64,000 nucleotides of DNA from Candidatus Nanopelagicales bacterium. GTDB lineage: Bacteria; Actinomycetota; Actinomycetes; S36-B12; GCA-2699445. The translations under genes and the position numbers were made by a program. Position 1 is the first letter of the stretch, and each line of letters begins with the position of its first letter. The notes under the pieces are model-generated. The model had not been told where the DNA came from and made no database searches. It worked only from the letters and a program-made list of their open reading frames with translations. The DNA is taken from the NCBI GenBank assembly GCA_030700225.1, contig JAUYJT010000061.1:39121-103120 (forward strand), written 5' to 3'. This document shows positions 26,395-43,628 of the stretch, piece by piece.

Positions 26395-27879
26395 TCAGTC
26401 CTGGAGCGACTGGCGCCTGAGTAGTTCCACGAGCGACCGGACCCCGAAGCCGGTGCCGCCCTTTGGCGTGTACCCATAGCGGCTCTCGGGATTGAAGGCC
26501 GGTCCGGCGATGTCGAGGTGTGCCCACGCGGTGCCCCGGGGAATGAACTCGCGCAGGAAGATCCCGGCCGCCAGCATCCCGCCGTTGCGGTCGCCGGTGT
26601 TCGTCAGGTCGGCGACCGATGATTTCAGCCCGGCTCGCAGGTGTTCGGGCATCGGCATCGCCCACATGTCCTCGCCCGCGGCATCGGCGGCCGCCACCAC
26701 GCGTGACCGCAGACCGTCGTCGTTGGCCATAACGGCTGCGGTCCTCATGCCAAGAGCGATCATCGCCGCGCCCGTCAGAGTAGCTACGTCGATTATCGAG
26801 TCGGGGGAGTCTTCGCAGGCTCTGGCCAGCGCGTCGGCCAGGACAAGCCGCCCCTCGGCGTCAGTGTTGAGGACTTCGACGGTCTTGCCGCCCCGAATCT
26901 TGATTACGTCTCCTGGCCTTTGGGCGCTGCCGCCGGGCATGTTCTCCGCTGCCGCCAGCCATCCGGTGACGTTGATCGGCAGGCCGAGCTTGGAGACGGC
27001 CGACACCGTCGCGAGCACGCAGGCCGCGCCGGCCATGTCGTGCTTCATGGTCTCCATCGACTTGGCGGGCTTGAGCGAAAGGCCCCCGGAGTCGAACGTG
27101 ATGCCCTTGCCCACCAGCGCGGTGTGGAGCCGGGCCTTCGGATGGCGGTGCTGGAGCTGGATCAGGCGCGGGCCGTCGTGGGAGCCTTGACCGACTGCCA
27201 GGATCCCGCCGAACTCCCCGCGCCGCAGGTCGTGCTGGTCGAGGATCTCGACGCCGACGTCGGTGTGCTTGAACAGCTTGTCGGCCTGGCTGGCCAGGGC
27301 GGCGGGGTTGAGGTTGTTCGCCGGGGTGTTCACAAGATCGCGGCCCAAGTTCACGGCCGCCGCGACTGTCGTGGCTTCGGCGACAGCTTCCTTGACCGGA
27401 GAGTCGTCGGCTGTGGGGACCACGAGGATGATCTCGGACGGTGCGGGGCCGTCAGGGTCGGAGCTGTCGCCTCGGTAGGCGTCGAACCTGTATGCGCCCA
27501 GCAAGGCACCCTCCGCCACACAGGCCACGGTGACCGGATCGGAGTCAGGCGCGAGGACCGCGATCCGCGCTAGCCCCCATGTGTCGCGCAGGGTGCCGCC
27601 GACGGCATCGCGGAGATCCTCCGATGAAGGCTGGGCTGCGATCGTGGTCAAGATGGTCACCCGGCCGGGGCCGCGCTGAGAGCTCGGGATCCGGATCGGC
27701 CCCGTGTCGGCGCCAGTGGGCGCTAGGTCGGAGGCCGCCTGTGCGATCAGTCGTTCAGCCGCGCGTCCCAGCGTCTTGGGCGGCACAAGCAGGTCCATTC
27801 GCCCGTCAGACCTGATGGCGAACACGACGAGGGCGTCGACATCCGCAGGGGCCTCAATGCTGAGCCGTAGCGCGGTCAT
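26395..27879 (-). CDS. pepA: leucyl aminopeptidase (M17)
   Basis: 494 aa. VGKGITFDSGGLSLKP, NTDAEGRLVLADAL, M17 signature. Confidence 0.92.
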   Translation of the reverse strand: MTALRLSIEAPADVDALVVFAIRSDGRMDLLVPPKTLGRAAERLIAQAASDLAPTGADTGPIRIPSSQRGPGRVTILTTIAAQPSSEDLRDAVGGTLRDTWGLARIAVLAPDSDPVTVACVAEGALLGAYRFDAYRGDSSDPDGPAPSEIILVVPTADDSPVKEAVAEATTVAAAVNLGRDLVNTPANNLNPAALASQADKLFKHTDVGVEILDQHDLRRGEFGGILAVGQGSHDGPRLIQLQHRHPKARLHTALVGKGITFDSGGLSLKPAKSMETMKHDMAGAACVLATVSAVSKLGLPINVTGWLAAAENMPGGSAQRPGDVIKIRGGKTVEVLNTDAEGRLVLADALARACEDSPDSIIDVATLTGAAMIALGMRTAAVMANDDGLRSRVVAAADAAGEDMWAMPMPEHLRAGLKSSVADLTNTGDRNGGMLAAGIFLREFIPRGTAWAHLDIAGPAFNPESRYGYTPKGGTGFGVRSLVELLRRQSLQD

Positions 27880-27962: not shown

Positions 27963-29069
27963 ATGACCGAAGATCGGCGTGACAGTCGGCGGCAGGAACT
28001 GAAGGAAACGCCGATCACCGCATGGAACCGGGCGGCCGGAGCCAAGATGGCCGATTTCGCCGGATGGGCGATGCCGATTGAGTACCCGGCCGGCACGATC
28101 TCCGAGCATCGCGCGGTGCGCTCAGGCTGCGGACTGTTCGACGTCTCGCACATGGGAACCGTGCGGATCTCGGGGGGGCCGGCCGTTGCCCGGCTCAACG
28201 AGACCCTCACGAACGACTTGGCTGTTCTGGATGACGGACAAGTGCAGTACACGTTGCTGTGCGACGAGAACGGCGGCGTTGTCGACGACATGCTCGCGAC
28301 GCGCATGCGTGCCGATGAAGTGTTGCTTGTGCCAAATGCCTCCAACACCGCCGCTGTACTGGCTGTGCTGCGCGAGGCTCTTGGCGACGAGGCCGTGGTG
28401 GACGAGGGTGACGTTGCCGCGATTCTGGCGGTCCAAGGTCCCGCATCCCCGGGCGTTCTTGAGAGTCTTGGACTGCCCTCGCGGCACAGGTACTTGACGG
28501 TGGAGACGGCCAAGTTCGAGGGCGTCCCGGTGATCGTCTCCAGGACTGGCTACACCGGCGAAGTCGGATTCGAGATCTTCGTTCCGGTGGCAGCGGCAGC
28601 GAGGCTTTGGGAAAGCCTGATCCAGGTTCCCGCAGTGACCCCGGCTGGGCTTGGTGCTCGCGACACCTTGCGCACCGAGATGGGGTACCCGCTGCATGGA
28701 CACGAGCTGTCGGCATCCATCGGGCCGGTTGAGGCTGGCCTGGCGTGGGCCGTCGCGTGGGACAAGCCGCATTTCATCGGGGACGCTGAGCTTCGGCGGC
28801 AGCGGGCCGAGGGGCCGAAGCGGCGGCTGCGTGGCGTTCGCGTGACGGGGCGGGGCGTGCCCAGGCCGGGCATGGTCGTGCGGGAGGGCGGACGGGATAT
28901 CGGATTGCTGACCAGCGGCACGTTCTCGCCCACGCTCGGTACTGGTATTGGTCTGGCTCTGGTGGAGCCGGATGTTCCGCTGGACAGCGAAGTCGATGTC
29001 GACATCCGCGGCAAGTCCGTAGCTGGGCTGCTCGTGCGGCCGCCTTTCGTCGACTCGTCTCCGAAGTAG
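27963..29069 (+). CDS. gcvT: glycine cleavage system aminomethyltransferase T
   Basis: 368 aa. GWAMPIEY, GLFDVSHMG, SRTGYTGEVGFEI, GLGARDTLR. Confidence 0.93.
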   Translation: MTEDRRDSRRQELKETPITAWNRAAGAKMADFAGWAMPIEYPAGTISEHRAVRSGCGLFDVSHMGTVRISGGPAVARLNETLTNDLAVLDDGQVQYTLLCDENGGVVDDMLATRMRADEVLLVPNASNTAAVLAVLREALGDEAVVDEGDVAAILAVQGPASPGVLESLGLPSRHRYLTVETAKFEGVPVIVSRTGYTGEVGFEIFVPVAAAARLWESLIQVPAVTPAGLGARDTLRTEMGYPLHGHELSASIGPVEAGLAWAVAWDKPHFIGDAELRRQRAEGPKRRLRGVRVTGRGVPRPGMVVREGGRDIGLLTSGTFSPTLGTGIGLALVEPDVPLDSEVDVDIRGKSVAGLLVRPPFVDSSPK

Positions 29070-29080
29070 AGCGGGGTCTT
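28998..29080. repeat. direct repeat copy A (functional 3' end of gcvT plus 11 nt)
   Basis: 83 bp, 78/83 identical by manual alignment to 38992-39074. Covers the last 23 codons and stop of gcvT. Confidence 0.9.
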
Positions 29081-29141
29081 GGGGCGGCTGCTCCCCGATC
29101 CGATGCACCGCCGCGCAGCGGTTGTCTGCTGCCAACTCCGG

Positions 29142-29599
29142 GAGTAGCTTGAAGCTGCTAAGTGGACGTCAAGTGGAAGGGATGGGCCGATCATGTCTCA
29201 GGAACAGATCGCAGTGCTTGTCACCAGGGTGAAGGAAGATGAGGTCTTCGCCGCGGCGCTTGCCGTCGCGACCGACGCGCAGGATGCGCAGCGGATCGCC
29301 TCGGAAGCTGGAATCGAAGTCAGCGCCGAGGAGCTTCTGACGTTGAAAGCTCAGGCGAGCGAGGACGTCTCGGACGCCGAACTTGAGGCTGCCTCCGGCG
29401 GACGTCGTTTCTCCACCCTCGACGTCTGCCCGCCAACGCAGCTGTGCACCTTCGGCTGGATTTGCGGATAGCGGATCCGCGCCACCGCCACTGTCTAGTG
29501 ACACGACGGCGTTTCCGGGGTGGCCGCCAGTGACGGTTGATGCGGCTATCGGTACTCACGGCTGGCCTTGGCACGAGCGTTTGGAGCGCGCTGGGCGAT
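29142..29599. repeat. tandem segmental duplication, copy 1 (lanA upstream region + leader; lanM 5' stub)
   Basis: 29142-29405 matches 29849-30112 (offset 707): the upstream 51 nt are identical and I counted about 17 substitutions in the 213-nt leader part. 29530-29599 matches 30187-30256 (69/70). The core-encoding stretch between them cannot be aligned. Confidence 0.9.
29193..29471 (+). CDS. class II lanthipeptide precursor with Nif11-type leader (LanA1), 92 aa
   Basis: The 70-aa leader MSQEQIAVLVTRVKEDEVFAAALAVATDAQDAQRIASEAGIEVSAEELLTLKAQASEDVSDAELEAASGG ends in a double-Gly. Core RRFSTLDVCPPTQLCTFGWICG (4 Ser/Thr, 3 Cys). GGAAGGGA lies ahead of the ATG. Confidence 0.85.
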   Translation: MSQEQIAVLVTRVKEDEVFAAALAVATDAQDAQRIASEAGIEVSAEELLTLKAQASEDVSDAELEAASGGRRFSTLDVCPPTQLCTFGWICG

Positions 29600-29688
29600 T
29601 GGCACATGTGTCGATCGGTCCGGTGTCCCTGGTTTTGTTGGGTGTGTCGACGCTGTGCTTCGTGGCCGACACCGCTGACGAGGTCTAG
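29530..29688 (+). pseudogene. lanM 5' remnant (first 23 codons conserved, then unrelated, stop after 52 codons)
   Basis: VTVDAAIGTHGWPWHERLERAGR is identical to the LanM N-terminus at 30187. Homology ends abruptly at 29599. Confidence 0.8.
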
Positions 29689-29848
29689 GGCGGGGATGTG
29701 ACCTTGATCCACACAGATGACGGGCCGCTGTATTCCCCCGCACGCTAGGGGTATCCGTCCCTCGCACGCGGGGGGACCCCCCGGGGAAGAGGGATCCATG
29801 GGCTCATCAGAGACCCTCGCGTGGCGGTTGCGTCCTTGGAGTTTTCGT

Positions 29849-30256
29849 GAGTAGCTTGAAGCTGCTAAGTGGACGTCAAGTGGAAGGGATGGGCCGATCA
29901 TGTCTCAGGAACAGATCGCAGTGCTTGTCACCAGGCTGAAGGAAGATGAGGCCTTCGCCGCGGCGCTCGCCGTCGCGACCGACGTGGCCGACGCGCAGCG
30001 AATCGCCTCGGAAGCTGGAATCGAAGTCAGCGCTGACGAGTTTCTGACGTTGATCCCTCAGGCGAGCGAGGACGTCTCAGACGCCGAACTGGAGGCTGCC
30101 TCCGGCGGACGTACTGGACCCGACACCTGCCTTCCCGGGTCGATTCTGTGCACCATCCCCGTGGTTTGCTCATATCAATATCATCCGTGACGGTTGATGC
30201 GGCCATCGGTACTCACGGCTGGCCTTGGCACGAGCGTTTGGAGCGCGCTGGGCGAT
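29849..30256. repeat. tandem segmental duplication, copy 2
   Basis: See copy 1. Contains lanA2 and the authentic lanM start. Confidence 0.9.
29900..30190 (+). CDS. class II lanthipeptide precursor with Nif11-type leader (LanA2), 96 aa
   Basis: The leader is 62/70 identical to LanA1 and ends in AASGG. Core RTGPDTCLPGSILCTIPVVCSYQYHP (5 Ser/Thr, 3 Cys). Its stop overlaps the lanM GTG (GTGA). Confidence 0.85.
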   Translation: MSQEQIAVLVTRLKEDEAFAAALAVATDVADAQRIASEAGIEVSADEFLTLIPQASEDVSDAELEAASGGRTGPDTCLPGSILCTIPVVCSYQYHP

Positions 30257-33200
30257 CCGCTGTATCGACGCAGGCGGACCCTCGCGACGATGCCGAACAA
30301 CCTGAGGTGGTCGCGCAATGGCGGGCTTCGGTCGATCCAGACAACGCCGGATTGTTCGCTAAACGACTGGCTTGGGCAGGGTTGAGCAGCCGCGATGTGG
30401 CGCCGCTGCTGGTCTTGGATGCCGCTCCTCGGGCGGACGCGACCGACTGGTGGGCCGATCTGGAAGCCATGCGCGACGCTTGCCGCCGATCGCAGCAATC
30501 AGCCGGCGGTTCGAACCGCGTCGATCCGGTGGATCCGGGCATCCCGTTCGCGGCGCTCCTGGATCCACTAGTGCGGTGGAACTGGACCAAAGCTCGCCAG
30601 CGTAGTCCTGAACTGCGCGGCCTGGCCATCGGCGCGCAGGAATCGGCCCGAAGGGCGTTGCTGCAAGGGCTGTCCTCGCTGTGCTCACAGGCGCTCGCCG
30701 CTGACTTCGAGGACACCCGACCGATGGGCGCCACACTCTTGCTCAAGCTGGGTTCGCTCCCCGTGGGCCAGGAGCATCCCACAGCCGTCTATGACGAATG
30801 GTGTCGTCGCCACCTCGCTGACGGCCTCACCCGCATGCTCGGTCGCTTTCCGGTGCTGGGTCGCCTGGTCTCGGTTTCTTGCGCTCAGTGGAGCTCGAAC
30901 TTGGTCGCCATGATGCAACGGGTGGACGGCGATCGAGAACTGCTGCAAGCGCATTTCGGCATCCCCGGGCAGGAGCCGATATCCCAAGTGAAGTGGGGGC
31001 TCAGCGATCCCCATCGACGTGGTCGAAGCGTCGCCATCGTTCACTTCGGAGTCGGTGCGCAGCGGCGAAGCATTGTGTACAAGCCCAAGGACATGCGCAT
31101 TGAGGAACGGTTCCAGCAGCTCGTCAGACAAGTCGGGAACTGGCTTGACGACCCCGACTGGAAGTCACTTGCGGTTGTGGCCCGTGGAACGGAGTACGGG
31201 TACGCGGCGCTCGCGGAGCACCGGCACTGCGCCAACGACGACGAGTTGGCGATGTTCTATCGAAACACCGGTCGGCTACTTGCCCTGCTTCACCTGCTCG
31301 GGGCAACGGACGCCCACTTCGAGAACCTGATCGCCGACGGGACCTCACTGCACTTGATCGACGCGGAGACCTTGTTCCAGGGCGGGATGGTTGATCCGAT
31401 CGAACTCAACCCGGCATCGGCAGACCCGCCAGAGAGCGTGTTGGCCGCCTCAGTCCTTCGGGTAGGGCTGCTCCCGTGCTGGCTACTCGGCGGCAGCCCA
31501 ATGCGGGCCTACGACGTCAGCGCGCTGGGCATCAAATCCGTGGAAGGTCCGATGTCAATCCTGGGCTGGGCGCACGTCAACACCGACGACATGGTCTGGG
31601 CGAGAGTCGATTACCTTCCCGACCAACCTGGATCGCTGCCTGTTCCGGCGGGCGTTTCGAACCCCTTGGCCTCACATGTGGACGATGTGACTGCGGGCTT
31701 CGAGCAGGTGTACCGACTGGCCATGGTGCCCGAGTATCGCGAGAGTCTGGTTGCCTCAGTCGCGGCGTTCACCGGGGTTACGCGCCGGATCGTGCTGCGA
31801 GCTACCCGCGTGTACGCCAAGGTGCAGGAGAGCGCCTTGAGCGCCGAGGCGCTCGCCGATGCCAACTGTCGGGCATTCGCGCTGGAGAAACTGTCGCGCA
31901 ACAGTCTGTTGACCGATTCGAAGCGCGCTCAGTGGCAGGTGTTCCTGTCGGAGCTCTTCGACATGGAGAACCTAGACATCCCGTACTTCGAGTATCCGTT
32001 GGGTTCCGATGAGGTGATCTCGTCGACTGGGGCGATTCCCGGCTTACTCGCAGGCAACGAGATCAGCGAAGCGATCGAACGCATCAACAATCTGTCGGAC
32101 ACCGATAGGGCATGGCAGGTGCGACTGATCCGCGGTTCGATTCGGGCTCGCTACCACGCCATCAATCGCGTCGAAGAGCAGCCGCCGATAGTGGATGTCA
32201 CCGCGCCGGGCGATTCGAGTGCCATGACTGTCGGTGCGGTGGCTGACGGACTTCTGACTGGTCTGGCGGAGTCAATGATCGACGACGGCGCTTCGGACCG
32301 CTCGTGGCTCACATTGTCTCTGATCCCGGGCGCGGACAAAGTCAGGCTAGGCCTGATCGGTGATGGGCTGTATGACGGCCGTGCCGGGGTGGCCGCGTTT
32401 CAATTCCTGATGGCAGATCTCGGTCGCGATGGGGCAGTTCGGGCCGATGCAGAGTCCACTGTGGCGCCGGTGCTCCGGCGGCTGGACGACCCCGATCAGT
32501 ACACGCGATTCCGTTGCCTTCGCGATTTCGGCCTCGGCTGGGCAGGTCTGGGTGGGTTGCTCCGACTGTTCGACCTGCGTATGCGCAGCAGTGCTCCGGG
32601 CGACATGTTCGGTGCCCCCGAGGCAGTGAGTCGCTTGGTCTGCCAGGTGTCCGCGGACCTGATCGGGCGGGACCTCCACCGCGACCTGCTGGCGGGCGTC
32701 GCCGGGCTGATAGGTCCGATCGCCCGGATTCATCGCCGGACCCCCACTGAGCGGACGGCCTCCATCCTGCGGGCAGCAGCGGAGCACCTGATGTCGGAGC
32801 AGAGTGGTGATGGGGGCTGGCCGGTCGCTGACGCCAGAGCACCGCTCACTGGACTCGCGCACGGCGCTAGCGGCATGGGTATGGCACTGCTGGAAGCGGG
32901 GACGGTATTGGACGACGATCGGATTGTCGAAGCTGGCACCCGGGCGTTCACCTATGAACGCAGCGTCTTCGATGTCGGCGTCGGTAACTGGCCCGATTTC
33001 CGCGAGCACCCGGGTCGGGAACCAGGCGACTCGTCTTTCATGGTGGCGTGGTGTCACGGTGCTCCGGGCATCGGGCTGGCTCGCATGCGCGCGCTGCAAC
33101 TGCTCCCCGAACATCCGCAGGCCAGTGCGTGGGACGAGGAGTTGCGCCTGGCCATGGATACGACGGTGCGCAGTCCGATCGGAATGATGGACCACCTTTG

Positions 33201-33459
33201 CTGCGGATCCATGGGACGCGCGGCCGTGCTACGGGTCGCTGGGCGTTGGGCTCGAGAGCCAGAATGGGTGGGCGCCGCAGATGAGTTGACCTTCGACGTG
33301 ATCGCACGGGCACGCGTCAGGGGCCGCTTCACGCTGCAGCTCGACGATCCACGCACGGCCGCGACAACCGCACCGGGCCTGATGACAGGGGTCGCAGGAG
33401 TGGGGGCGCACTTGGCGAGCATGATGAGTGACGGTGATCTGTCCACTCTGCTGCTTTGA
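30187..33459 (+). CDS. lanM: class II lanthipeptide synthetase LanM (ProcM-like, CCG zinc-site variant)
   Basis: About 1090 aa. Dehydratase-domain motifs IVYKPKDMRIE, GATDAHFENLIADG, LHLIDAETLF. LanC-like cyclase motifs GLAHGASGMG, WCHGAPGIGLAR, DHLCCGSMGR. Start set at GTG 30187, where homology with the duplicated stub begins. An alternative GTG is at 30148. Confidence 0.9.
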   Translation: MTVDAAIGTHGWPWHERLERAGRSAVSTQADPRDDAEQPEVVAQWRASVDPDNAGLFAKRLAWAGLSSRDVAPLLVLDAAPRADATDWWADLEAMRDACRRSQQSAGGSNRVDPVDPGIPFAALLDPLVRWNWTKARQRSPELRGLAIGAQESARRALLQGLSSLCSQALAADFEDTRPMGATLLLKLGSLPVGQEHPTAVYDEWCRRHLADGLTRMLGRFPVLGRLVSVSCAQWSSNLVAMMQRVDGDRELLQAHFGIPGQEPISQVKWGLSDPHRRGRSVAIVHFGVGAQRRSIVYKPKDMRIEERFQQLVRQVGNWLDDPDWKSLAVVARGTEYGYAALAEHRHCANDDELAMFYRNTGRLLALLHLLGATDAHFENLIADGTSLHLIDAETLFQGGMVDPIELNPASADPPESVLAASVLRVGLLPCWLLGGSPMRAYDVSALGIKSVEGPMSILGWAHVNTDDMVWARVDYLPDQPGSLPVPAGVSNPLASHVDDVTAGFEQVYRLAMVPEYRESLVASVAAFTGVTRRIVLRATRVYAKVQESALSAEALADANCRAFALEKLSRNSLLTDSKRAQWQVFLSELFDMENLDIPYFEYPLGSDEVISSTGAIPGLLAGNEISEAIERINNLSDTDRAWQVRLIRGSIRARYHAINRVEEQPPIVDVTAPGDSSAMTVGAVADGLLTGLAESMIDDGASDRSWLTLSLIPGADKVRLGLIGDGLYDGRAGVAAFQFLMADLGRDGAVRADAESTVAPVLRRLDDPDQYTRFRCLRDFGLGWAGLGGLLRLFDLRMRSSAPGDMFGAPEAVSRLVCQVSADLIGRDLHRDLLAGVAGLIGPIARIHRRTPTERTASILRAAAEHLMSEQSGDGGWPVADARAPLTGLAHGASGMGMALLEAGTVLDDDRIVEAGTRAFTYERSVFDVGVGNWPDFREHPGREPGDSSFMVAWCHGAPGIGLARMRALQLLPEHPQASAWDEELRLAMDTTVRSPIGMMDHLCCGSMGRAAVLRVAGRWAREPEWVGAADELTFDVIARARVRGRFTLQLDDPRTAATTAPGLMTGVAGVGAHLASMMSDGDLSTLLL

Positions 33460-33465
33460 CTGCTC

Positions 33466-35967
33466 CTACAGCTGTTGGCGTTCGATGAGGTCGTGGAACG
33501 GTCCGGGTCTAGCCATGAGTTCGGCGAACTTGCCTTCGGCAACGACGACTCCGTCTGTGAGCATGACCACCAGATCGGCTTGTTCGATAGTGGACAAGCG
33601 GTGTGCCACAACCACGCGGGTGATGTTCAGTCGGTCCAGGTTGGCTACGACCGCAGCCTGGCTGACGTTGTCCAGCGCAGACGTAGCCTCGTCGAGAATC
33701 AGGATCCGGGGCTTGCCCGCCAGCGCGCGCGCCAGCAGGATTCGCTGGCGCTGGCCACCTGATACCGCACCGGTGCCTTCCACTACGACGGTCGCCAGTC
33801 CCATCGGCATGGCGCGCACATCTTCAGCCACTGCCGCGTCCGCTAGGGCCTGCCAGATTTGTGCCGCCGACAAGCCCCGGCCCAGGTCGACGTTCTCTCT
33901 GATGCTGCCGGGCATGAGGGCCGAGGACTGCATCACCGATCCGATCTGGCGACGCACGGACGAGCGATCGAGAGCCGACAGGTCGCGTCCGTCGAAGGAC
34001 ACGATTCCTGACTCCGGATTCTCCAACCCCAGCACGAGGCGCAGCAGTGTGCTCTTGCCGCAACCGGACGGTCCGACGATCGCCACGTGCGCCCCTGCTG
34101 GAATGGCGAAGCTGACACCCCGCAGCACCGGCGGAGTGTCGGGCCGGTAGGAGAACACCAGGTCGCGCAGGTCGATCGAACCAGCCAGTTGCGCGACCTC
34201 CTGGCCAGTGCCGGACTCGGGCTCAGCGCGCAGCACGGACCGGGCACGCTCAAGCACGGCCCGTGCGCTCAGACCCGCGCCGACCGATGCGACCGCAGCA
34301 GCAACCGCAGATGTCGCCGCCGTCAAGGCAGTCTGGGCGGTGACCAGGCTGCCCACACTTGTCCCTGCCGCAGCCGTGACTGCGAGCAGGACAGCTAGCC
34401 CCGCCGAAGGCCACAGCGCTCCGGTCATCTGTTGGGCCACAGTGAGTCGACGCTGGCGCACTTCGGTCGCCGTTGTGCGGGTCTGGGAAGTGGCCCACAG
34501 GGCGAAGGCGCGCCCGGTCGCGCCTGACACCCGCAGGCGGCTAACCCCGGCGATCAGGCCGAGCGTGACTGACTGGCTTTCCGTGCTCGCGTCGAGGACT
34601 TCCCGGGTCAGTCGCGCCGCGCGGCGCACGAGCAGCAGCTCGACGACGGCTCGTACAACCAGGAACGCCAGCAGTGCGGTCGCCAGCGACAAACTCGTCG
34701 TTGCCACACCAAGCATGGCGCCCACCACGGCGGAGATGTCCAGCAGGGAGGTAATGACCGAGTTCGACATGCTCATCGAGGCCGTGTCAACAGCGTTGGC
34801 GTCGGTCATGCGCGAGGCAACGGTGCGCTGGTTCTGCCACGACATTGGAAGGCGTATCAACCGATCCCAAACCGCGGTCGCCGTCACGGCCACTCCGCGG
34901 CCACGAATGCGCAACATGGCGTACAACCGCACGGCCCGAAGCGCCATATCGCCAGCGGCGAAAGCCACCAGGGCAACGCCGACGACCAGGAGCGTCGACC
35001 CGGTCTGGCTAGCCACGGTCGAGGTGAGCTGTCCGGCCACAATCGGGATGACGGCGGCCAGCACTCCCACGATCGCTGTCAGCATCGCGACCAGCCACAG
35101 ACTCTTCTTGCTGCCTCGCAAACCCAGGCGCACCAGGTCGCGGATCCGAGCCGGGCGATTCGGATCCAACAGGGGCTCGAAAAGAATCGCCTCGCGCGAC
35201 CACGGCGCAGCGGTGGCCGCGTCGAGGGCGGCGTGCAGGCCTAGGGTCGGCTCCCACACGTGGTAGGCACCCCTGCGCCAGACAGCCGCACCGTAAGTCG
35301 CCCGGTGGCGGTCCTGTAGCAACAGCGGGGGCCCCTCCTGACGCCACCAACCGGGCGTCAGTCCAACCCGCCGCACGGCCGCACCGGACGCGGCGGCCAG
35401 GGATGTGATCGTGTCGCGGCCGGTGATCTCAACGTCGGCGACGGCCCGGCGAAGGAGCAAAGGATTCGGCCGCAGCCCAATCTGTCGCGCCATGAATTCC
35501 ACTACCGCGACATCGTCGGGAAGATCACCGGAGGTGAGCAAATCCGGCTTCTGGCCCGGAACCGCCGCCGCCAGGCCCAGCAGGGCATCGTCGATCAATC
35601 GCTCATCGTGGCGCGCGGACAACCGCAGCAGGTCAGCCGCCGACAGGTTTCGGTCGTTTGCCGCGCTGAGCGCCTCGCGAGCCGATCGGGCCATCGCCTG
35701 CTCGGCAGCATCGTCCGTGGCGGAGACCGGCTCGACTTGCGTGCCCGGCAACCCAACGCCAACCAGGTCAGCCCCTTCCACCTGCGCGCCAGTCAGTTGG
35801 CTAGGGGGAGTGACCTCGCACACCGGGATGCGCCGACCCGGACCGGCATCCGTGCGGGGAACAACGAACACCACAACCGTCCCCGTCACAACCCGCACTG
35901 TCGTGCCGGGGGTCAAGTGCAGGATCTCCGTGGCGTCGAGGGTGTGACGGATGTCAGCGGTGTTCAC
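33466..35967 (-). CDS. bacteriocin-export ABC transporter, permease/ATPase with N-terminal cNMP-binding-like barrel (NHLP/Nif11 system 'ABC2' type)
   Basis: 833 aa. The N-terminal ~150 aa domain has no peptidase Cys. It is followed by a 6-TM permease, then Walker A GPSGCGKST, signature LSGGQRQR and Walker B LILDEATSALD. Confidence 0.8.
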   Translation of the reverse strand: MNTADIRHTLDATEILHLTPGTTVRVVTGTVVVFVVPRTDAGPGRRIPVCEVTPPSQLTGAQVEGADLVGVGLPGTQVEPVSATDDAAEQAMARSAREALSAANDRNLSAADLLRLSARHDERLIDDALLGLAAAVPGQKPDLLTSGDLPDDVAVVEFMARQIGLRPNPLLLRRAVADVEITGRDTITSLAAASGAAVRRVGLTPGWWRQEGPPLLLQDRHRATYGAAVWRRGAYHVWEPTLGLHAALDAATAAPWSREAILFEPLLDPNRPARIRDLVRLGLRGSKKSLWLVAMLTAIVGVLAAVIPIVAGQLTSTVASQTGSTLLVVGVALVAFAAGDMALRAVRLYAMLRIRGRGVAVTATAVWDRLIRLPMSWQNQRTVASRMTDANAVDTASMSMSNSVITSLLDISAVVGAMLGVATTSLSLATALLAFLVVRAVVELLLVRRAARLTREVLDASTESQSVTLGLIAGVSRLRVSGATGRAFALWATSQTRTTATEVRQRRLTVAQQMTGALWPSAGLAVLLAVTAAAGTSVGSLVTAQTALTAATSAVAAAVASVGAGLSARAVLERARSVLRAEPESGTGQEVAQLAGSIDLRDLVFSYRPDTPPVLRGVSFAIPAGAHVAIVGPSGCGKSTLLRLVLGLENPESGIVSFDGRDLSALDRSSVRRQIGSVMQSSALMPGSIRENVDLGRGLSAAQIWQALADAAVAEDVRAMPMGLATVVVEGTGAVSGGQRQRILLARALAGKPRILILDEATSALDNVSQAAVVANLDRLNITRVVVAHRLSTIEQADLVVMLTDGVVVAEGKFAELMARPGPFHDLIERQQL

Positions 35968-38126
35968 GCCATCACCAATCGTCGGTACGGGCCGTCCACC
36001 GCGACCAGGTCGACGTGACGCCCGCGCTGCACGACTTGACCCTTGTCGAGGACGATGATCTCGTCCGCGTCGCGCACCGTGGACAGCCGATGGGCAATGA
36101 TGAGACTCGACGCGCCTCTTCGTCGGATCGCGGCGTCGATGTGCGCCTCGGTTGCCGCGTCCAACGCCGAGGTGGCTTCATCCATGATCAGCAGGGCCGG
36201 GTTGCGCACCAGAGCGCGGGCGATCTCGAGCCTTTGCCGCTGTCCACCCGACAGGTCCCCGCCGCCCTCGCGCAGTTGCGCCTCGTAGGAACCCGGGCGG
36301 CGCGCGATCTCGTCGTGTAGGGCCGCGTCCTTGACTGCCTGAACGACGGCGGCGTCATCGATGGTGGGATCCCACAGGGTGATGTTGTCGCGGAAGGTGC
36401 CAGCGAAGATCACCGGATCTTGGTCGACTATTGCCATGTCGTGATGCAGGACCTCCTCCGGCCACCACTGGCGCGGCTTGCCGTCGACCATCACCGCCCC
36501 CTCCCACGGTTGATACAGCCCGATCACCAACCGCGCCACTGTCGACTTCCCGCACCCGCTGGGTCCAACCAGCGCCACGCGAGAACCAGGGGCGATGTGT
36601 AGGTCCAAATCGGTCAACAGAGGCGGCCGATTGCGGTCGTATCCAAAGACCAAACCATCCAGCCGCAGGTCTCCCACGACAAAGGCCGGCCGGGGCTCGC
36701 CGGATGCATCGACCTGAATGTCAGGCAGTTTGGTTTGCAGAACGTCGTCGATCTGATCGAGTTCGCCGGATAGCATCTCGGCTTGCTGGAACTGCGCGAC
36801 CACCATGGCCGCGGGTGCCAGTGCCAATCCCAGCAGCGTCTGTACAGCGACGAACCCGGCCAGCGTTAGCTGCCCTTTCGTGACGCCGAGGAGTCCGACA
36901 ACCGTTACCGCCGCATCCGCAACTGTGATCAGGAAGACGGGCAGCAGATCGATGCCGACCGTGCGCTCACCCAACTGCTGCAGTGCCGCCAGAAAGCGGT
37001 TATGGGCAGCCGTCCATCGAGCGCCGAGGTGGTCTTCGGCACCGGACGCCTTGATTACCTCGAGCTGACTCAAGGAGGTAACGGCAATCGTCGCGACCTC
37101 GGTCTGTTCTCTGACCATTCTCATGGCCAGAGTGCGTCGCCTTCTGGATGCTGACGCCATCGCCAAGACGACGAATGCGACGGCGGCGACAGCAACCGCC
37201 CCCGCCGGCGGGTAGGCGAAGACCATCAGCGCCACCGCGGTCGAGCTGCTGATGACTCCAACTACCATCGTGGAGAACATGGTGGACACGGTCGCGGCCA
37301 CCCGAGCCGGTTGGAGGGCTCTTTGCGCCAAGGCGCCAGCGCCTCGCATGGCGTGGAAGTTCGCCGGGAGGAGGAACAGGCGAGCGACCAGCTTGGACTG
37401 CAGAACCACTGACAACTTCGTAGCCAAACGCATTCCGACGGCGCCCTGCAGTCCGATCAGAGCGGCCTGCATCAGGGCTGCGAAGGCTAGCGCTGCGAGC
37501 AGACTCGGCACCTGCACCACCGGGCCGCCCTGAAGCCAATCCACGAACAGCCGGGCGATCCCCGGCACCAGAATCTGGGGAATAACCAGCAGCAGCCCCA
37601 GCAGCGCGATGAGGAGAACGCCGTCGCGGGATCCTGTGAGGTAGCTGGCGAGTCTCGAAACCAGCCGTGGAGGCCGACCGCCCCTGACGAACTCGGGGCC
37701 GGGCGTCATCTCCAACACGATCCCGGTGAACGACTCGTCGAATTCCTCGTCGCTGCAGGTGCGGTGGCCGAGCGCCGGATCGTTCAGATACCAGCCATCC
37801 GGTGACCACCCTTCCACCACGAGGAAATGGTCAAAGCGCCAGAAGACTATGGCGGGAAGCGTGCGGGTCTTCAGGGTCTCGGGCTGGCTGCGGCGAGCCA
37901 TAACCTCCATCCCATACTTCTGGGCGGCGATCTTGACCGCGAGGGCGTTGCTCCCGTCTCGGGAGATACCGCACGCATCGCGCAGCTCCTCCAGCGGCAC
38001 CCACTTTCCATAGTGGGCCAAGACGATGCCGAGCGACGCCGCACCGCACTCGGTGGCCTCCATCTGCAGGCGTGCCGGCGTCTTCTCACGGTGGCGCCTT
38101 GACGCCGCAGCAGTGCTGGTACTCAC
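35964..38126 (-). CDS. bacteriocin-export ABC transporter with N-terminal C39 peptidase domain (NHLP/Nif11 system 'ABC1' type; LanT-like)
   Basis: 720 aa. C39 residues are visible (QMEATECGAASLGIV Cys; FDHFLVVEG His; LNDPA Asp). GPSGCGKST, LSGGQRQR, LIMDEATSALD. ATGA overlap with the downstream ABC gene. Confidence 0.88.
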   Translation of the reverse strand: MSTSTAAASRRHREKTPARLQMEATECGAASLGIVLAHYGKWVPLEELRDACGISRDGSNALAVKIAAQKYGMEVMARRSQPETLKTRTLPAIVFWRFDHFLVVEGWSPDGWYLNDPALGHRTCSDEEFDESFTGIVLEMTPGPEFVRGGRPPRLVSRLASYLTGSRDGVLLIALLGLLLVIPQILVPGIARLFVDWLQGGPVVQVPSLLAALAFAALMQAALIGLQGAVGMRLATKLSVVLQSKLVARLFLLPANFHAMRGAGALAQRALQPARVAATVSTMFSTMVVGVISSSTAVALMVFAYPPAGAVAVAAVAFVVLAMASASRRRRTLAMRMVREQTEVATIAVTSLSQLEVIKASGAEDHLGARWTAAHNRFLAALQQLGERTVGIDLLPVFLITVADAAVTVVGLLGVTKGQLTLAGFVAVQTLLGLALAPAAMVVAQFQQAEMLSGELDQIDDVLQTKLPDIQVDASGEPRPAFVVGDLRLDGLVFGYDRNRPPLLTDLDLHIAPGSRVALVGPSGCGKSTVARLVIGLYQPWEGAVMVDGKPRQWWPEEVLHHDMAIVDQDPVIFAGTFRDNITLWDPTIDDAAVVQAVKDAALHDEIARRPGSYEAQLREGGGDLSGGQRQRLEIARALVRNPALLIMDEATSALDAATEAHIDAAIRRRGASSLIIAHRLSTVRDADEIIVLDKGQVVQRGRHVDLVAVDGPYRRLVMA

Positions 38127-38974
38127 TGCTTCCCCAGCAACTGCTCCAACAGGCTCCGCTCGCTGACCAGGATGACCCCCTCGAACTCGTCGCTGGACGG
38201 AGCGGGCTCGTCAAGCAGCACTTCGATGACAACCCGCGGCCCTGGCGGGGGATCAAGTGTTCCCATGCCTTCCTGAACTAGGGCGGGTGACAGCGCCGGA
38301 CTGCGATCGGGCCCGATCCGCCCGGCCAGCACAGGCCCGCCGCTAACGGACACGGTCACCGACTGACCCTCAACCACTTTTCCCGCCTCGTCCGGCAGCA
38401 CGGTGATCAGGCCGACGCGGCCGTCATCAACCTTCAGTGACACCTGCGCAAGCCATTCGCCGGTATGTATCGGAGCCCCGGGCGACGAAAGGTAGCCCAG
38501 CAGCGTTCCTTCGACTTGCGAAAACTGGGGCACGGCGCGTTTGCCCGCGATGACATCCGCAACCCGCTGGCCGACGGTGACGCGCTCACCAGGCTTGACG
38601 GCGAAACTGCCGAACTGCCCCTTCGCGCTGGAGGTGACAAGGCCGATGCCGTTGAGTCCGACGACCCGACCCGAACCCGACACGGTGACGTTGCGCGGGG
38701 TGATCGCCGTGTAGGCGATGGCGGCGCCGATCAGGATGACAGCCGAAACAACAAGCAGCCAGATGCGCAGAGACGTCACCGGCAGCAGCTGGTCGAGTCG
38801 GTTGCTGGACTCATTCGCCTCCAGCGCTGCGGTTCGGTAACTAACCGCGAGTGGAGACGACGATGGCGATGTTCGCGATTGCGGCGAAGGGGCTGTCTGA
38901 TCAGCCGGCTGATTCGTGATGAGAAACCTCCCTCTGGCTGGCTTGGCTATCCTCGCCCACAGTAACGCGATCAT
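38123..38974 (-). CDS. short HlyD-family / membrane-fusion-like secretion protein of the bacteriocin exporter
   Basis: YRTAALEANESSNRLDQLLPVTSLRIWLLVVSAVILIGAAIAY (N-terminal motif plus single TM as in NHLM-system HlyD proteins), then beta-barrel-like repeats (VKPGERVTVGQRVADV, VVEGQSVTV). Start trimmed to ATG (complement of 38972-38974). The 486-aa ORF runs antisense through the gcvT remnant and the next gene. Confidence 0.7.
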   Translation of the reverse strand: MIALLWARIAKPARGRFLITNQPADQTAPSPQSRTSPSSSPLAVSYRTAALEANESSNRLDQLLPVTSLRIWLLVVSAVILIGAAIAYTAITPRNVTVSGSGRVVGLNGIGLVTSSAKGQFGSFAVKPGERVTVGQRVADVIAGKRAVPQFSQVEGTLLGYLSSPGAPIHTGEWLAQVSLKVDDGRVGLITVLPDEAGKVVEGQSVTVSVSGGPVLAGRIGPDRSPALSPALVQEGMGTLDPPPGPRVVIEVLLDEPAPSSDEFEGVILVSERSLLEQLLGKQ

Positions 38975-38991
38975 GTCGGCAATGGCTGGGA

Positions 38992-39074
38992 GTCGACATC
39001 CGCGGCAAGGCCGTAGCCGGGCTGCTTGTGCGGCCGCCTTTCGTCGACTCGTCCCCGAAGTAGAGCGGAGTCTT
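38992..39074. repeat. direct repeat copy B = orphan gcvT 3' fragment (23 codons + stop, no upstream gene body)
   Basis: Would encode VDIRGKAVAGLLVRPPFVDSSPK*, against VDIRGKSVAGLLVRPPFVDSSPK* in gcvT. Homology starts abruptly at 38992. Confidence 0.9.
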
Positions 39075-39135: not shown

Positions 39136-40578
39136 GTGTTACAGTCCGCCGTGGCTGTCGGCGCGGAGGAATCTCAGGGGCTCCAGCCCTCCGAGCCGGG
39201 CATCGAGTCGGCATGGCTGAACCGCCAGCGGGCTTGGCTTGAGAGCCGAGCGAACATCCTGGGTCTTGTCGGGTTTTGTTTCGCCGTCGGGATCGGACTG
39301 GCAAATCAGCTCGCGTTTGGATTCGCCGGAGATCTGGATCTGCTCGGTAGCGGCCTGACCCTGGCAGTGGCCGGCCTCGTCGCCGGGGCTGGTATCGCGG
39401 TCGCCCTGACTCGCCGCCTCGGCAGGTGGCATCTGGCGATCGCAGCGACGGCCTTCGGCACGACGATCGCGCCGGTGGTGTCGGCCATGGCGCACTCCGA
39501 GCGCGTCTTGCCACAGGCCATCGCTCTAAGCCTCGCCGCCTCAGGCGCAGTTCTCTGCGCGGGTGCGGCGAAGCCCGGCACAATCCGCTCGGTCGCGTTC
39601 TGGACTCTGGCCGCGATCATCTGGGTGAGCCTGGCGTTGGCTGTCGCGAACCTGCTCTTCGGGGGCGAGGCCGCGTTCCGCAACCACTACTACCCCAGAT
39701 ACAGCGAGTACCTGGGACTTCCGGTCCTGTCCGGCATCACGGGACATCAGAACACGTTGGGATTCATCGCGGCCATCGCTCTGCCGGTCCAGTGGGTTAT
39801 CGCGGACGGCAAGTCAGTGATCCGCCGCCGCCTGCGTGCCGAACCTCGAACGCTTCTGCTGGTAGCGCTCGGCCCGGTCGCGACCGCGATCGCGCTCCTG
39901 TGGTCCCAGAGCCGGACGTCGCTCGCGGCCGCCGTCCTTGGCTTGATCGTTGTCTCACTCCCGCTGCGTCGCCTGGCAGGCCGGACTTGGGCGTTCGCCT
40001 GGGCTGGGCTCCTCGCGGTGCTCGCACTCGGCCCGCTCGCGGTTGGTTTGGTCGGCATCACGACCTTCACCGGCCGCGTGGAGATGTGGACCTACGCGTT
40101 CGCGGACTTCCGCGCGAATCCACTCTTCGGCTACGGCTCAGCGTTCATGGGCAGGGACGGCTACTGGCGCGACAAGCCGACGTTCCCCGACCTATTCGGG
40201 GCCCACAACCAGCTCATGGAGATGCTGGGCCGCACCGGAATGATTGGGGCCATTTCGTTCACCGCTATGGCCGTCGTCCTCGCGGTGGCGGCATGGAAGG
40301 TGCACCAACGCGACGGGGGAGTCGCGGCGGCGATCATCGTCGTCTACGCGCTCATTGGCAGCCTGGAGACCCTGATTCCTCTAGCGCAAGCTCAGGCCGT
40401 TGGGCTGAGGGAGGTCTTCACCCCAATGATCCTGGCGCTGGGGTTGATCGCCTCGTCACTGGCGCTCGTCTCGCGTCGCGGGGATGGGAAGGACAATCAG
40501 GACGCGCCCGTCAGCCGGAACGCACCGCACGACGTCGGGCGGCCCGCGCGTAGAAGGCTCCCAGGACAGCCGTCGTGA
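39136..40578 (+). CDS. O-antigen ligase / polymerase-like (Wzy_C) integral membrane protein
   Basis: 480 aa, polytopic. LLWSQSRTSLAA and FGAHNQLMEMLGRTGMIG are typical of the O-antigen ligase family. Start uncertain. Confidence 0.65.
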   Translation: MLQSAVAVGAEESQGLQPSEPGIESAWLNRQRAWLESRANILGLVGFCFAVGIGLANQLAFGFAGDLDLLGSGLTLAVAGLVAGAGIAVALTRRLGRWHLAIAATAFGTTIAPVVSAMAHSERVLPQAIALSLAASGAVLCAGAAKPGTIRSVAFWTLAAIIWVSLALAVANLLFGGEAAFRNHYYPRYSEYLGLPVLSGITGHQNTLGFIAAIALPVQWVIADGKSVIRRRLRAEPRTLLLVALGPVATAIALLWSQSRTSLAAAVLGLIVVSLPLRRLAGRTWAFAWAGLLAVLALGPLAVGLVGITTFTGRVEMWTYAFADFRANPLFGYGSAFMGRDGYWRDKPTFPDLFGAHNQLMEMLGRTGMIGAISFTAMAVVLAVAAWKVHQRDGGVAAAIIVVYALIGSLETLIPLAQAQAVGLREVFTPMILALGLIASSLALVSRRGDGKDNQDAPVSRNAPHDVGRPARRRLPGQPS

Positions 40579-42816: not shown

Positions 42817-43551
42817 TCACTCCTCGAGTCTGGCGGAGAGCTGCTTGGCCGCAGCGACAGTAGCCGGCCCCCAGCGCTTGCCGGGCGAGCGCCCGATGCG
42901 CTCGATCGGGCCGGAAACGCTGATCGCGGCGAGTACGCGGCCCGCAGGGCCGAACACCGGCGCGGACACCGATGCGACACCTTGCTCGCGCTCGGCCACA
43001 CTCTGCGCCCACCCGCGTTCGCGGACCTGGGCCAGGGCGTCGAAGTTGAAGGCCGCGTCCGCCAGAAACCGTTCCTGGACACTCGCGGATTCCCAGGCCA
43101 GTAGGACCTGAGCTGCGGACCCAGCGAGCAACGTCATCGACGCGCCCAGCGGAACGGTGTCCCTCAGCCCGGACGGCAGGTCGGCGACGGCGACGCAGAG
43201 GCGTCTCCCCGCGCGGCGCCGGTAGAGCTGTGCGCTCTCGCCAGTAGTGTCCCGCAGCCCTTCGAGGACAGGCCGAGCCACAGCGACCAGGCGGTCCGCG
43301 ACGGCTGAGGCCGCGAGTTGGCTGATGCGCGCCCCCAGGATGAATCTGCCGTCGGAGTCGCGCCCGGCCATCCCGTGGGACTCCAGCGCCACTGCGAGCC
43401 TGTGCGCGGTGGGGCGGGTCAGCCCCGTTTCGTGCGTAAGGTCCGACAAGTCGTGAGGGCCAAGTTCAAGGGCGTCCAGGATCCGCTGCGTCTTGTCCAG
43501 CACGCCGACTCTGCTAGCATGGTCCACGATGTGAGCATAGCATCTCACCAT
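42817..43551 (-). CDS. IclR-family transcriptional regulator (LtbR-like, divergent from leuCD)
   Basis: [41 protein letters not shown], then an IclR effector domain. Divergent from leuC as in other actinobacteria. Start ambiguous (43581, 43551 or GTG 43527). Confidence 0.8.
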
Positions 43552-43628
43552 GTGAGATCGCCGGAATGAGTCAGGCGTCATCAGAAGACGGCGGGTTGGA
43601 CTCCGGCGGCACGGCTAGGAGGCAGAGC

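What the first reader, a model, noticed from the sequence alone, without database searches (positions are those of the whole stretch)
28998..39074. The whole lanthipeptide cluster is bracketed by an 83-bp direct repeat of the gcvT 3' end
The last 23 codons plus stop and 11 downstream nt of gcvT (28998-29080) recur at 38992-39074, with 78/83 identity by my alignment. The second copy has no gene body upstream. All ~9.9 kb between the copies belongs to the lanthipeptide system. This resembles an island integrated into the 3' end of a gene that carries a replacement terminus, yet no integrase or transposase is visible. Of the four differences inside the coding part, three are synonymous third-position changes (GCT/GCC, CTC/CTT, TCT/TCC) and one is Ser/Ala. 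That is the pattern expected if both copies evolved as functional gcvT ends in different lineages before being joined, meaning acquisition from a relative together with its gcvT terminus. It is not the pattern of a fresh target-site duplication followed by random decay. Four sites is too few for statistical support.
Basis: partly seen in the sequence, partly recalled or inferred. Interest (0 to 1): 0.7.

Follow-up and report, generated by a model that had tools for sequence, protein, structure and literature searches.

The report
Duplicated gcvT end flanking lanthipeptide island
A 10-kb antimicrobial-peptide gene cluster in an uncultured freshwater-type actinobacterium sits between two copies of the last 83 bases of the housekeeping gene gcvT; this is a real recombination scar at a known kind of insertion hotspot, it has no integrase, and it is of ordinary interest.

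Summary
Bases 28998-29080 (the last 23 gcvT codons, the stop codon and 11 nt) recur at 38992-39074 with 78/83 identity, sharp edges and only two copies in the window. Between them lies a complete Nif11-leader class II lanthipeptide cluster with NHLM-type export genes. A second strain (about 97% identical) has the same island and both repeat copies. No empty site was found at strain level. Three more distant lineages keep the synteny pepA-gcvT | iclR-leuCD. In two of them gcvT and iclR are only 3-16 nt apart. So the whole of 29081-42816 is inserted: the lanthipeptide module plus a Wzy/flippase/WecG module, with repeat B as the seam between them. No integrase, transposase or tRNA occurs anywhere in the 64-kb window, and island codon usage equals that of core genes. 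In strain 2 the coding parts of the two copies are identical. Three strain-specific bases are shared by both copies within each strain, which indicates gene conversion between the repeats. Best reading (about 0.45): an integrase-free, homology-anchored addition of a relative's cassette at the gcvT/iclR hotspot. Main rival (about 0.35): a decayed, CIME-like, att-flanked integrative element.

The parts
26395..27879 (-). pepA (M17 leucyl aminopeptidase), core gene on the left flank
   Evidence: Pfam Peptidase_M17 in the gene tables. The synteny is conserved in L001, L048 and L060.
27963..29069 (+). gcvT (glycine cleavage T protein), intact; its last 72 nt form the coding part of repeat A
   Evidence: Pfam GCV_T 2e-80 plus GCV_T_C 6e-18. 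The product is named GcvT in NCBI MAG records.
28998..29080 (+). Repeat copy A: the last 23 codons of gcvT, the stop codon and 11 nt
29081..38991 (.). Lanthipeptide module (the 'island') between the two repeat copies
   Evidence: It is absent from related lineages.
29193..29471 (+). lanA1, a Nif11-leader precursor (92 aa, GG cleavage motif, Cys/Thr-rich core)
   Evidence: Pfam Nif11 9e-8. TIGR03798 scores 50.3 bits, above the cut-off of 32.3.
29530..29599 (+). Orphan copy of the first 70 nt of lanM (99% identical to 30187-30256), a rearrangement scar
   Evidence: Repeat family D3.
29600..29845 (.). 246-nt spacer of unknown origin between the two precursor units. In strain 2, IS (rve) fragments abut the equivalent of position 29676/29677.
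   Evidence: It has no significant structure.
29900..30190 (+). lanA2, a second Nif11-leader precursor (96 aa). Its leader is 93% identical to lanA1 at DNA level and its core peptide is different.
   Evidence: Repeat family D1. Pfam Nif11. TIGR03798 scores 43.6 bits.
30187..33459 (+). lanM, class II lanthipeptide synthetase (1090 aa)
   Evidence: DUF4135 plus LANC_like. TIGR03897 scores 620.9 bits, above the cut-off of 304.
33466..35967 (-). ABC permease/ATPase, NHLM 'ABC2' type
   Evidence: The best NCBIfam hit is TIGR03797 at 552 bits, below the equivalog cut-off of 709.
35964..38126 (-). C39-peptidase ABC transporter, NHLM 'ABC1' type (leader cleavage and export)
   Evidence: Peptidase_C39 plus ABC domains. 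TIGR03796 scores 801 bits against a cut-off of 853.
38123..38779 (-). Short HlyD-like secretion protein. The start is uncertain: annotators place it at 38779 (218 aa) or 38974 (283 aa).
   Evidence: Only the N-terminal 89 of 421 positions of TIGR03794 match, E = 3e-10.
38992..39074 (+). Repeat copy B: an orphan gcvT terminus in the intergenic region between the HlyD-like gene and the Wzy_C gene
39151..40578 (+). Wzy_C / O-antigen-ligase-like membrane protein, the first gene of the second inserted module
   Evidence: Pfam Wzy_C 2.5e-14. Exact look-up.
40511..41743 (-). Polytopic membrane protein, a weak match to a polysaccharide-synthesis (flippase-like) family
   Evidence: Pfam Polysacc_synt 2e-4, below the cut-off.
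41782..42738 (-). WecG/TagA/CpsF-family glycosyltransferase, the last gene of the second inserted module
   Evidence: Pfam 7.6e-35. TIGR00696 scores 83.5 bits, above the cut-off of 69.
42817..43581 (-). iclR-family regulator, the core gene that directly abuts gcvT in related lineages (right edge of the hotspot)

Best explanation
The 83-bp repeat is the seam left by an additive recombination event at a cassette hotspot. The hotspot lies between two convergent core genes, gcvT and iclR.

Inferred origin. In the common ancestor of the two known strains, DNA came in from a compositionally similar relative. That relative carried a different accessory cassette next to its own gcvT. The incoming DNA was added to the resident cassette instead of replacing it. 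There are two possible routes. (a) A circularised fragment made of the gcvT terminus plus the lanthipeptide cluster crossed over once with the resident gcvT terminus (Campbell topology). (b) A linear fragment made of the gcvT terminus plus the Wzy/flippase/WecG module plus iclR recombined homologously in iclR and joined illegitimately behind the lanthipeptide cluster. Either route gives the structure seen: an intact gcvT (copy A), then the lanthipeptide module, then an orphan terminus (copy B), then the polysaccharide module, then iclR. No dedicated integrase is needed. The right edge of the repeat, 11 nt after the stop codon, is where the two lineages' sequences stop being homologous inside the tiny ancestral spacer. 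The left edge is the end of the fragment or the illegitimate joint.

Shown. Since the event the two copies have interacted by gene conversion, and the surrounding region is reshuffled by frequent homologous exchange between strains.

Inferred. The repeats should also allow rare RecA-mediated loss of the island.
For: The repeat is real and has sharp edges.

Conserved synteny pepA-gcvT | iclR-leuC-leuD shows the hotspot. The spacer is 3 nt in L001 and 16 nt in L060-62. L048 has other cargo there (a VCA0040-like gene plus an antitoxin) and no gcvT-end duplication. So the spot takes up different cassettes, and 29081-42816 in the window is inserted.

Repeat B sits exactly between the two functional modules.

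No integrase, transposase, tRNA or terminal inverted repeats were found in the island or anywhere in the 64 kb.

GC3 and codon usage of the island genes fall within the range of core genes. GC is 0.63-0.68 against 0.66-0.68 in the flanks.

No attP-like copy of the 83 bp was found in IMG/VR, INPHARED phages, PLSDB plasmids or JGI metagenomes.

Homologous recombination is demonstrably active here. Divergence between the strains is mosaic, ranging from 0% to 11%. The two copies share three strain-specific bases at repeat positions 15, 21 and 24.

Experimental precedent: single crossovers of circular molecules gave 109-950-bp duplications of a gene end. These outnumbered true homology-facilitated illegitimate events in E. 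coli (PMC3240628).
Against: No donor lineage, empty site or circular form was observed.

Only two strains exist in the databases, and both have the final structure.

Route (a) needs an illegitimate circularisation plus a crossover on only 83 bp. Route (b) needs an illegitimate joint whose microhomology cannot be checked.

The architecture, a gene 3' end with its stop codon restored next to the insert, is also the classic signature of site-specific integration.

An 83-bp identity block is within the range I recall for actinomycete integrative elements (my own knowledge, not tested here).
Confidence: 0.45

Rival explanations
1. This is a decayed integrative element, CIME-like. An ICE, AICE, IME or prophage with a tyrosine integrase specific for the gcvT 3' end integrated by attP x attB recombination and brought a replacement terminus. 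It later lost its integrase and transfer genes by deletion. What remains is cargo (the lanthipeptide cluster) flanked by attL (copy A) and attR (copy B). It could still be mobilised in cis if a related element integrates next to it.
For: There are direct repeats, one of which restores the 3' end of a housekeeping gene including the stop codon. At 9.9 kb the insert falls within the 1.2-13 kb reported for cargo-bearing CIMEs. Those elements sit at the 3' ends of rpmG, rpsI, fda and rplL, and are described as very prevalent (PMC7563491). Bacteriocin genes are typical cargo (same paper). A reduced island with att repeats next to gcvT is known in V. cholerae, the Aux3 island (PMC7721734).
Against: No integrase, excisionase, relaxase or remnant of one was found, and the non-coding space in the island is only 58 + 246 + 212 nt. 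No related autonomous element or attP turned up in any collection searched. Composition is host-like. The other lineage with cargo at this hotspot has no gcvT-end repeat. Independent integrations of one element into the two strains cannot reproduce the observed allele pattern of the four copies (reasoning).
Confidence: 0.35
2. This is an in-situ target duplication. The lanthipeptide DNA was inserted by end-joining at a staggered break whose 83-nt overhangs were filled in. Both copies would then derive from the resident gcvT end and would have been identical at first. Later differences would come from allelic replacement of copy A.
For: In strain 2 the copies are identical over positions 1-77. 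All four coding differences in the window are private to copy A.
Against: 83 bp is far beyond the target duplications I know for bacterial transposases (my own knowledge). No transposase or inverted repeats are present. The G/A difference at position 78 is fixed between A and B in both strains, so the copies already differed, or diverged, before the strains split. The identity in strain 2 is equally explained by gene conversion.
Confidence: 0.07
3. The arrangement is ancient and vertically inherited, or it is an assembly artefact.
For: All close relatives found carry both copies and composition is host-like.
Against: Three more distant lineages lack the whole insert. An untranslated orphan 83-mer that stays 94-98% identical to the gene end cannot be old without homogenisation. 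Four independent assemblies reproduce both junctions.
Confidence: 0.03

Closest known systems
Cis-mobilizable elements (CIMEs) at the 3' ends of fda, rpsI, rpmG and rplL in Streptococcus (PMC7563491)
   Same: A cargo-only island of 1-13 kb, flanked by direct repeats, one of which completes the 3' end of a housekeeping protein gene. It has no integrase and no transfer genes.
   Different: CIMEs are defined by descent from an ICE or IME that has the same att sites. No such parent element, integrase specificity or tandem accretion is known here. The host is an uncultured high-GC actinobacterium.
Campbell-type single-crossover integration and homology-facilitated illegitimate recombination (PMC3240628)
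   Same: Inserted DNA is bracketed by a direct duplication of a gene-end fragment. No site-specific recombinase is needed. The repeat length is comparable to the 109-950 bp seen in experiments.
   Different: Those are laboratory events with plasmids. Here no replicon backbone is present, and neither the donor nor the intermediate has been observed.
Vibrio cholerae T6SS Aux3 island between gcvT and thrS (PMC7721734)
   Same: A small competition-related island (about 6 kb) immediately downstream of gcvT, flanked by direct att repeats. It was derived by reduction from a larger mobile element.
   Different: Aux3 keeps its integrase. Its att sites lie in the intergenic region rather than in the gcvT coding end, and naive strains with a single attB are known. 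The shared gcvT neighbourhood is coincidental.
Prochlorosin-type class II lanthipeptide systems with Nif11 leaders and NHLM export (TIGR03798, TIGR03897, TIGR03794/6/7)
   Same: Several Nif11-leader precursors with different cores, one LanM, a C39-ABC exporter, a second ABC subunit and a HlyD-like protein.
   Different: The transporter and HlyD scores are below the NCBIfam equivalog cut-offs, and the HlyD-like protein is only about half length. The nearest LanM outside this species is 56% identical.

Membership tests
Site-specifically integrated genomic island (ICE/IME/MGI) | Direct repeats (attL/attR) at both ends, one overlapping the target gene's 3' end | tested here: met
   83-bp repeats with 78/83 identity. 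Copy A includes the gcvT stop codon.
Site-specifically integrated genomic island (ICE/IME/MGI) | An integrase or recombinase gene inside the element, next to an att site | tested here: not met
   Pfam and NCBIfam scans of all island ORFs, and of long ORFs across the 64-kb window, show none. The gene tables agree.
Site-specifically integrated genomic island (ICE/IME/MGI) | An unoccupied attB in related genomes | tested here: inconclusive
   No empty site was found at strain level, where both strains are occupied. Lineages with 59-62% GcvT identity have gcvT abutting iclR, but they are too distant for the site to be aligned.
Site-specifically integrated genomic island (ICE/IME/MGI) | Excision to a circular form carrying attP | not testable with these tools
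   This needs the raw reads of SRR13727534, SRR26726065 and SRR26726070, or an experiment.
CIME (decayed att-flanked element) | Retains att sites but lacks all recombination and transfer genes | tested here: met
CIME (decayed att-flanked element) | Derives from, or can be accreted by, an ICE or IME with the same att specificity | tested here: not met
   No element carrying this sequence was found in IMG/VR, INPHARED, PLSDB or JGI metagenomes. Sampling of this lineage is very thin, so this is weak negative evidence.
Campbell-type or homology-anchored insertion | The insert is bracketed by a direct duplication of the homologous segment, and the gene stays intact if the segment is its 3' end | tested here: met
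Campbell-type or homology-anchored insertion | The two copies are of donor and recipient allelic type | tested here: inconclusive
   In the window, A and B differ at 4 mostly synonymous coding sites. In strain 2 they differ at none. Gene conversion and allelic exchange have blurred the signal.
Transposon insertion with target-site duplication | A short target duplication, terminal inverted repeats and a transposase | tested here: not met
   The repeat is 83 bp. The ends show no inverted repeat above shuffled controls. There is no transposase in the window.
Class II (LanM) lanthipeptide cluster with Nif11 leader | A LanM synthetase plus Nif11-leader precursors scoring above the curated cut-offs | tested here: met
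   TIGR03897 scores 620.9 bits against a cut-off of 304. TIGR03798 scores 50.3 and 43.6 bits against 32.3.
NHLM bacteriocin export system | TIGR03796, TIGR03797 and TIGR03794 equivalogs scoring above their cut-offs | tested here: not met
   These are the best hits, but all fall below the cut-offs: 801 vs 853, 552 vs 709 and 39.5 vs 156 bits. The proteins are related to the family but are not certified equivalogs.

The most novel reading that the evidence does not exclude
The duplicated gcvT terminus may act as a portable homology handle that makes the lanthipeptide cluster an integrase-free mobile cassette. RecA-mediated crossover between the 83-bp copies would pop the island out as a circle carrying one copy. 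That circle could re-enter any relative's gcvT end by a single crossover. This would explain why the island body is four times less diverged between the two strains than its flanks (0.68% against 2.4-2.7%) and why the two copies are homogenised.
Probability: 0.15. Interest if true: 0.55.

Novelty: new member of a known kind. Interest (0 to 1): 0.3.

Why it matters
The finding documents how a ribosomal-peptide (bacteriocin-type) cluster is stacked onto another accessory module at a hotspot between convergent core genes. The host is a poorly sampled aquatic actinobacterial lineage, and no mobility gene is involved. It also gives a clean small example of concerted evolution between 83-bp repeats 10 kb apart. 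Practically, it warns that synonymous-biased differences between a functional gene end and its orphan copy do not show that the orphan was once functional elsewhere. The living copy keeps evolving, and being replaced, under selection. If the repeats turn out to mediate excision and re-entry, this would be a minimal integrase-free island. As it stands, it is an ordinary direct-repeat-flanked island without an integrase.

Tried and rejected
(1) Empty-site search.
- The single genome-contig scan with GcvT returned nothing closer than 62% identity.
- Exact-protein look-ups of GcvT, Wzy_C and their cluster members gave only the window strain and one sister strain, both occupied.
- The 'third strain' contig L051 proved 100% identical to strain 2.
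- The nearest other GcvT (84% identity, L044) lies on a 2.3-kb contig. Its 119-nt tail matches neither flank and encodes no iclR end.

(2) Two metagenome scans and two viral scans with repeat-derived patterns found nothing, or only GcvT ends of 44-57% identity, each in single copy.

(3) Searches for an attP in the phage and plasmid collections gave no match. LanM homologues on plasmids are at most 31% identical.

(4) I looked for a third, degenerate repeat copy at the WecG/iclR junction, which would indicate tandem accretion. None scored above shuffled controls.

(5) Related loci have no gcvT-end duplications.

(6) Compositional foreignness: GC, GC3 and codon usage are indistinguishable from core genes.

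(7) The sequence at about 29730-29790 looked like a CRISPR repeat by eye. There is no array in the window and no significant fold, so I dropped the idea.

(8) Promoter and terminator scans, RNA folding around the repeat edges and a full Rfam scan found nothing.

(9) I considered independent site-specific integration of one element into each strain. No crossover position can reproduce the allele pattern of the four copies (reasoning), so I rejected it.
Full report
**Observation.** The 83-nt segment 28998-29080 recurs at 38992-39074 with 78/83 identity and no gaps. The blastn E-value within the window is 8e-32, and there is no other copy in the 64 kb. Similarity ends abruptly on both sides. Copy A consists of the last 23 codons of gcvT (27963-29069; GCV_T plus GCV_T_C), the stop codon and 11 nt. 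A 361-nt probe of the gcvT 3' region matches only those 83 nt at the second site, so copy B has no gene body. Independent Logan assemblies from two sequencing runs reproduce both copies with their flanks at 100% identity. The duplication is therefore not an assembly artefact.

**What lies between the copies.** The interval holds the following features.
- Two Nif11-leader precursors, lanA1 (29193-29471) and lanA2 (29900-30190).
- lanM (30187-33459).
- An ABC permease/ATPase (33466-35967, minus strand).
- A C39-peptidase ABC exporter (35964-38126, minus strand).
- A short HlyD-like protein (38123-38779 or up to 38974, minus strand).

LanM and the leaders pass the NCBIfam cut-offs. The three export proteins have the NHLM families as best hits but score below the equivalog cut-offs. 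The left end carries a rearrangement scar. The lanA unit is duplicated (267 nt, 93% identity). An orphan copy of the first 70 nt of lanM (99% identity) follows lanA1, and then comes a 246-nt spacer.

**Source and relatives.** The window matches a MAG labelled Candidatus Nanopelagicales bacterium (GCA_034376245.1). A second MAG, GCA_034523275.1 ('strain 2'), has a LanM 97% identical and DNA 96-98% identical. It carries the same island at the same place with both repeat copies. Its assembly breaks inside the lanA region, where it has an extra lanA unit and nested IS fragments (rve domains). A Logan contig from a third run is 100% identical to strain 2. It starts exactly at repeat position 48. 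A k=31 assembly graph must branch there if A and B are identical up to position 77. Beyond these two strains the nearest GcvT is 84% identical and sits on a 2.3-kb contig that is uninformative. The nearest other LanM is 56% identical. The 51%-identical LanM whose neighbourhood could be read sits in an unrelated context.

**The site is a hotspot between convergent core genes.** In a Micrococcales MAG (L001, GcvT 62%) the gcvT stop is followed within a few nucleotides by the stop of a convergent iclR-family gene. After that come homologues of window genes from 43571 onward. In another clade (L060-62, 59%) the spacer is 16 nt and iclR, leuC and leuD follow. In a third lineage (L048, 62%) two unrelated small genes sit between gcvT and iclR, and there is no gcvT-end duplication. 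In the window, iclR is at 42817-43581. The inserted DNA therefore spans 29081-42816, about 13.7 kb. It has two modules: the lanthipeptide module, and a Wzy_C / flippase-like / WecG module at 39151-42738. Repeat B is exactly the seam between them. No third copy exists at the WecG/iclR junction.

**No mobility genes, and host-like composition.** No integrase, recombinase, transposase or tRNA gene occurs in the island or anywhere else in the 64 kb. The island ends have no inverted repeats. GC, GC3 and codon usage of the island genes fall inside the range of the flanking core genes. The 83-mer, or its codon-degenerate form, was not found in IMG/VR, in phage or plasmid collections, or as a second copy in JGI metagenome contigs.

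- Position 78 separates A (G) from B (A) in both strains. The duplication therefore predates the strain split and arose once.
- Positions 15, 21 and 24 are strain-specific but shared by A and B within each strain: C, C, A in the window and G, T, G in strain 2.
- If three random substitutions struck B, the chance that they would hit the same sites and bases that distinguish the A alleles is roughly (8/83 x 1/3)^3, or about 3e-5.
- The simplest account is one gene-conversion event from A to B in strain 2. After it, the copies are identical over positions 1-77.
- Positions 19, 27, 36 and 63 are private to the window's copy A.
- Copy A lies in a tract (gcvT codons 224-366 through lanA1) that differs 5.8-11% between the strains, while codons 21-223 are identical. 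Over the whole gene the alleles differ at 28 synonymous and 6 non-synonymous codons.

Purifying selection on the living copy A, together with allelic exchange, is therefore enough to produce the '3 synonymous plus 1 conservative' pattern. The pattern does not show that copy B was once a functional terminus in another lineage, and it does not exclude that either.

**Population context.** Divergence between the two strains is strongly mosaic.

| Segment | Divergence |
|---|---|
| Left core | 2.4% |
| gcvT 3' tract | 5.8% |
| Copy A | 9.6% |
| Left part of the island | 6-11% |
| Island body, 30877-38991 | 0.68% |
| Copy B | 3.6% |
| Second module | 2.7% |

The island body is significantly less diverged than the second module (Fisher p = 3e-17). 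The 8-kb island body was therefore exchanged between the lineages more recently than its surroundings. One boundary of that block falls at or next to copy B. This shows active homologous recombination in the region, but it does not prove any special mobility of the island.

**Mechanism.** I favour (0.45) an integrase-free, homology-anchored addition of a relative's cassette at the hotspot. Two routes are possible. In the first, a circularised fragment (gcvT terminus plus lanthipeptide cluster) crossed over once with the resident terminus. In the second, a linear fragment (gcvT terminus plus polysaccharide module plus iclR) recombined in iclR and joined illegitimately behind the lanthipeptide cluster. 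The right repeat edge, 11 nt past the stop, is then simply where the two lineages cease to be homologous inside the ancestral 3-16-nt spacer. No coincidence of insertion points is required. Laboratory precedent exists: single crossovers of circular molecules produced 109-950-bp duplications of a gene end and outnumbered classical homology-facilitated illegitimate events (PMC3240628).

The main rival (0.35) is a decayed integrative element of the CIME kind. These keep their att repeats but have lost all recombination and transfer genes. They are described as prevalent at the 3' ends of housekeeping genes, with cargo of 1.2-13 kb (PMC7563491). The architecture fits perfectly. What is missing is any parent element, any integrase remnant, or any other occurrence of this att sequence. 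Independent integrations into the two strains cannot reproduce the allele pattern. An in-situ staggered-break duplication (0.07), and ancient inheritance or an artefact (0.03), are unlikely for the reasons given in the Rival explanations section.

**Verdict.** It is corrected on three points. The island is one of two stacked modules at a gcvT/iclR hotspot. No empty site exists among known strains. The synonymous-site argument is not diagnostic because the copies undergo gene conversion and copy A undergoes allelic replacement. This is a new member of a known kind, a direct-repeat-flanked and integrase-less genomic island at a gene 3' end, and it is of modest interest.

Noticed in passing
window 29139-29405 / 29846-30112 and 29530-29599 / 30187-30256: The precursor unit is duplicated. 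The leaders are 93% identical and the core peptides are unrelated. An orphan copy of the first 70 nt of lanM (99% identical) follows lanA1, and a 246-nt spacer of unknown origin comes next. This is not a simple tandem duplication. It looks like the scar of an older rearrangement or of a second cluster copy.
   Followed up: partly
L047 5974-6459 and L046 1-783 (strain 2), equivalent to window position about 29676/29677: The sister strain has an extra lanA unit with a third, different core peptide. It also has nested IS fragments inside the island: rve-domain transposase pieces and an HTH fragment. Its MAG contigs break there. The window strain has no IS at this spot.
   Followed up: partly
window 24150-43486 compared with L047 and L046: Divergence between the two strains is strongly mosaic. 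Blocks of 400-800 nt with zero differences alternate with blocks of 6-11%. This indicates frequent homologous exchange among diverged lineages of this uncultured actinobacterium. The 8-kb island body is the longest low-divergence block (0.68%).
   Followed up: partly
window 38123-38974 (minus strand): The HlyD-like export protein is only 218-283 aa, and only positions 4-89 of the 421-position NHLM HlyD profile match it. Annotators disagree on its start (38779 or 38974). A strong AGGGAGG motif at 38933-38927 sits 6 nt upstream of an in-frame ATC. If the long form is real, its ribosome-binding and promoter region would abut or include repeat B.
   Followed up: no
window 53763-58767: A type III-like restriction-modification module lies between the fakA-like gene and recG. 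It has two adjacent N6_N4_Mtase ORFs, possibly one methylase gene split in two, followed by a 1007-aa ResIII/DEAD helicase with an endonuclease domain. It is a second accessory insertion among core genes.
   Followed up: no
window 18611-20548: Two toxin-antitoxin-like modules (Gp49/HI1420-type and AbiEi plus nucleotidyltransferase) lie between glnA and the DUF4191-lipA-lipB block. This is another small accessory patch in an otherwise core region.
   Followed up: no
window 27880-27962: No glycine riboswitch, and no other Rfam family, reaches its gathering score upstream of gcvT or anywhere in the window. No tRNA gene is present in the 64 kb.
   Followed up: yes
L045 4873-6620 (GCA_036269055.1, Pseudonocardiaceae MAG): This record annotates a 582-aa partial 'GcvT' that consists of two consecutive GCV_T folate-binding domains. 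It is either a tandem internal duplication or a fusion of gcvT in another actinobacterial lineage.
   Followed up: no
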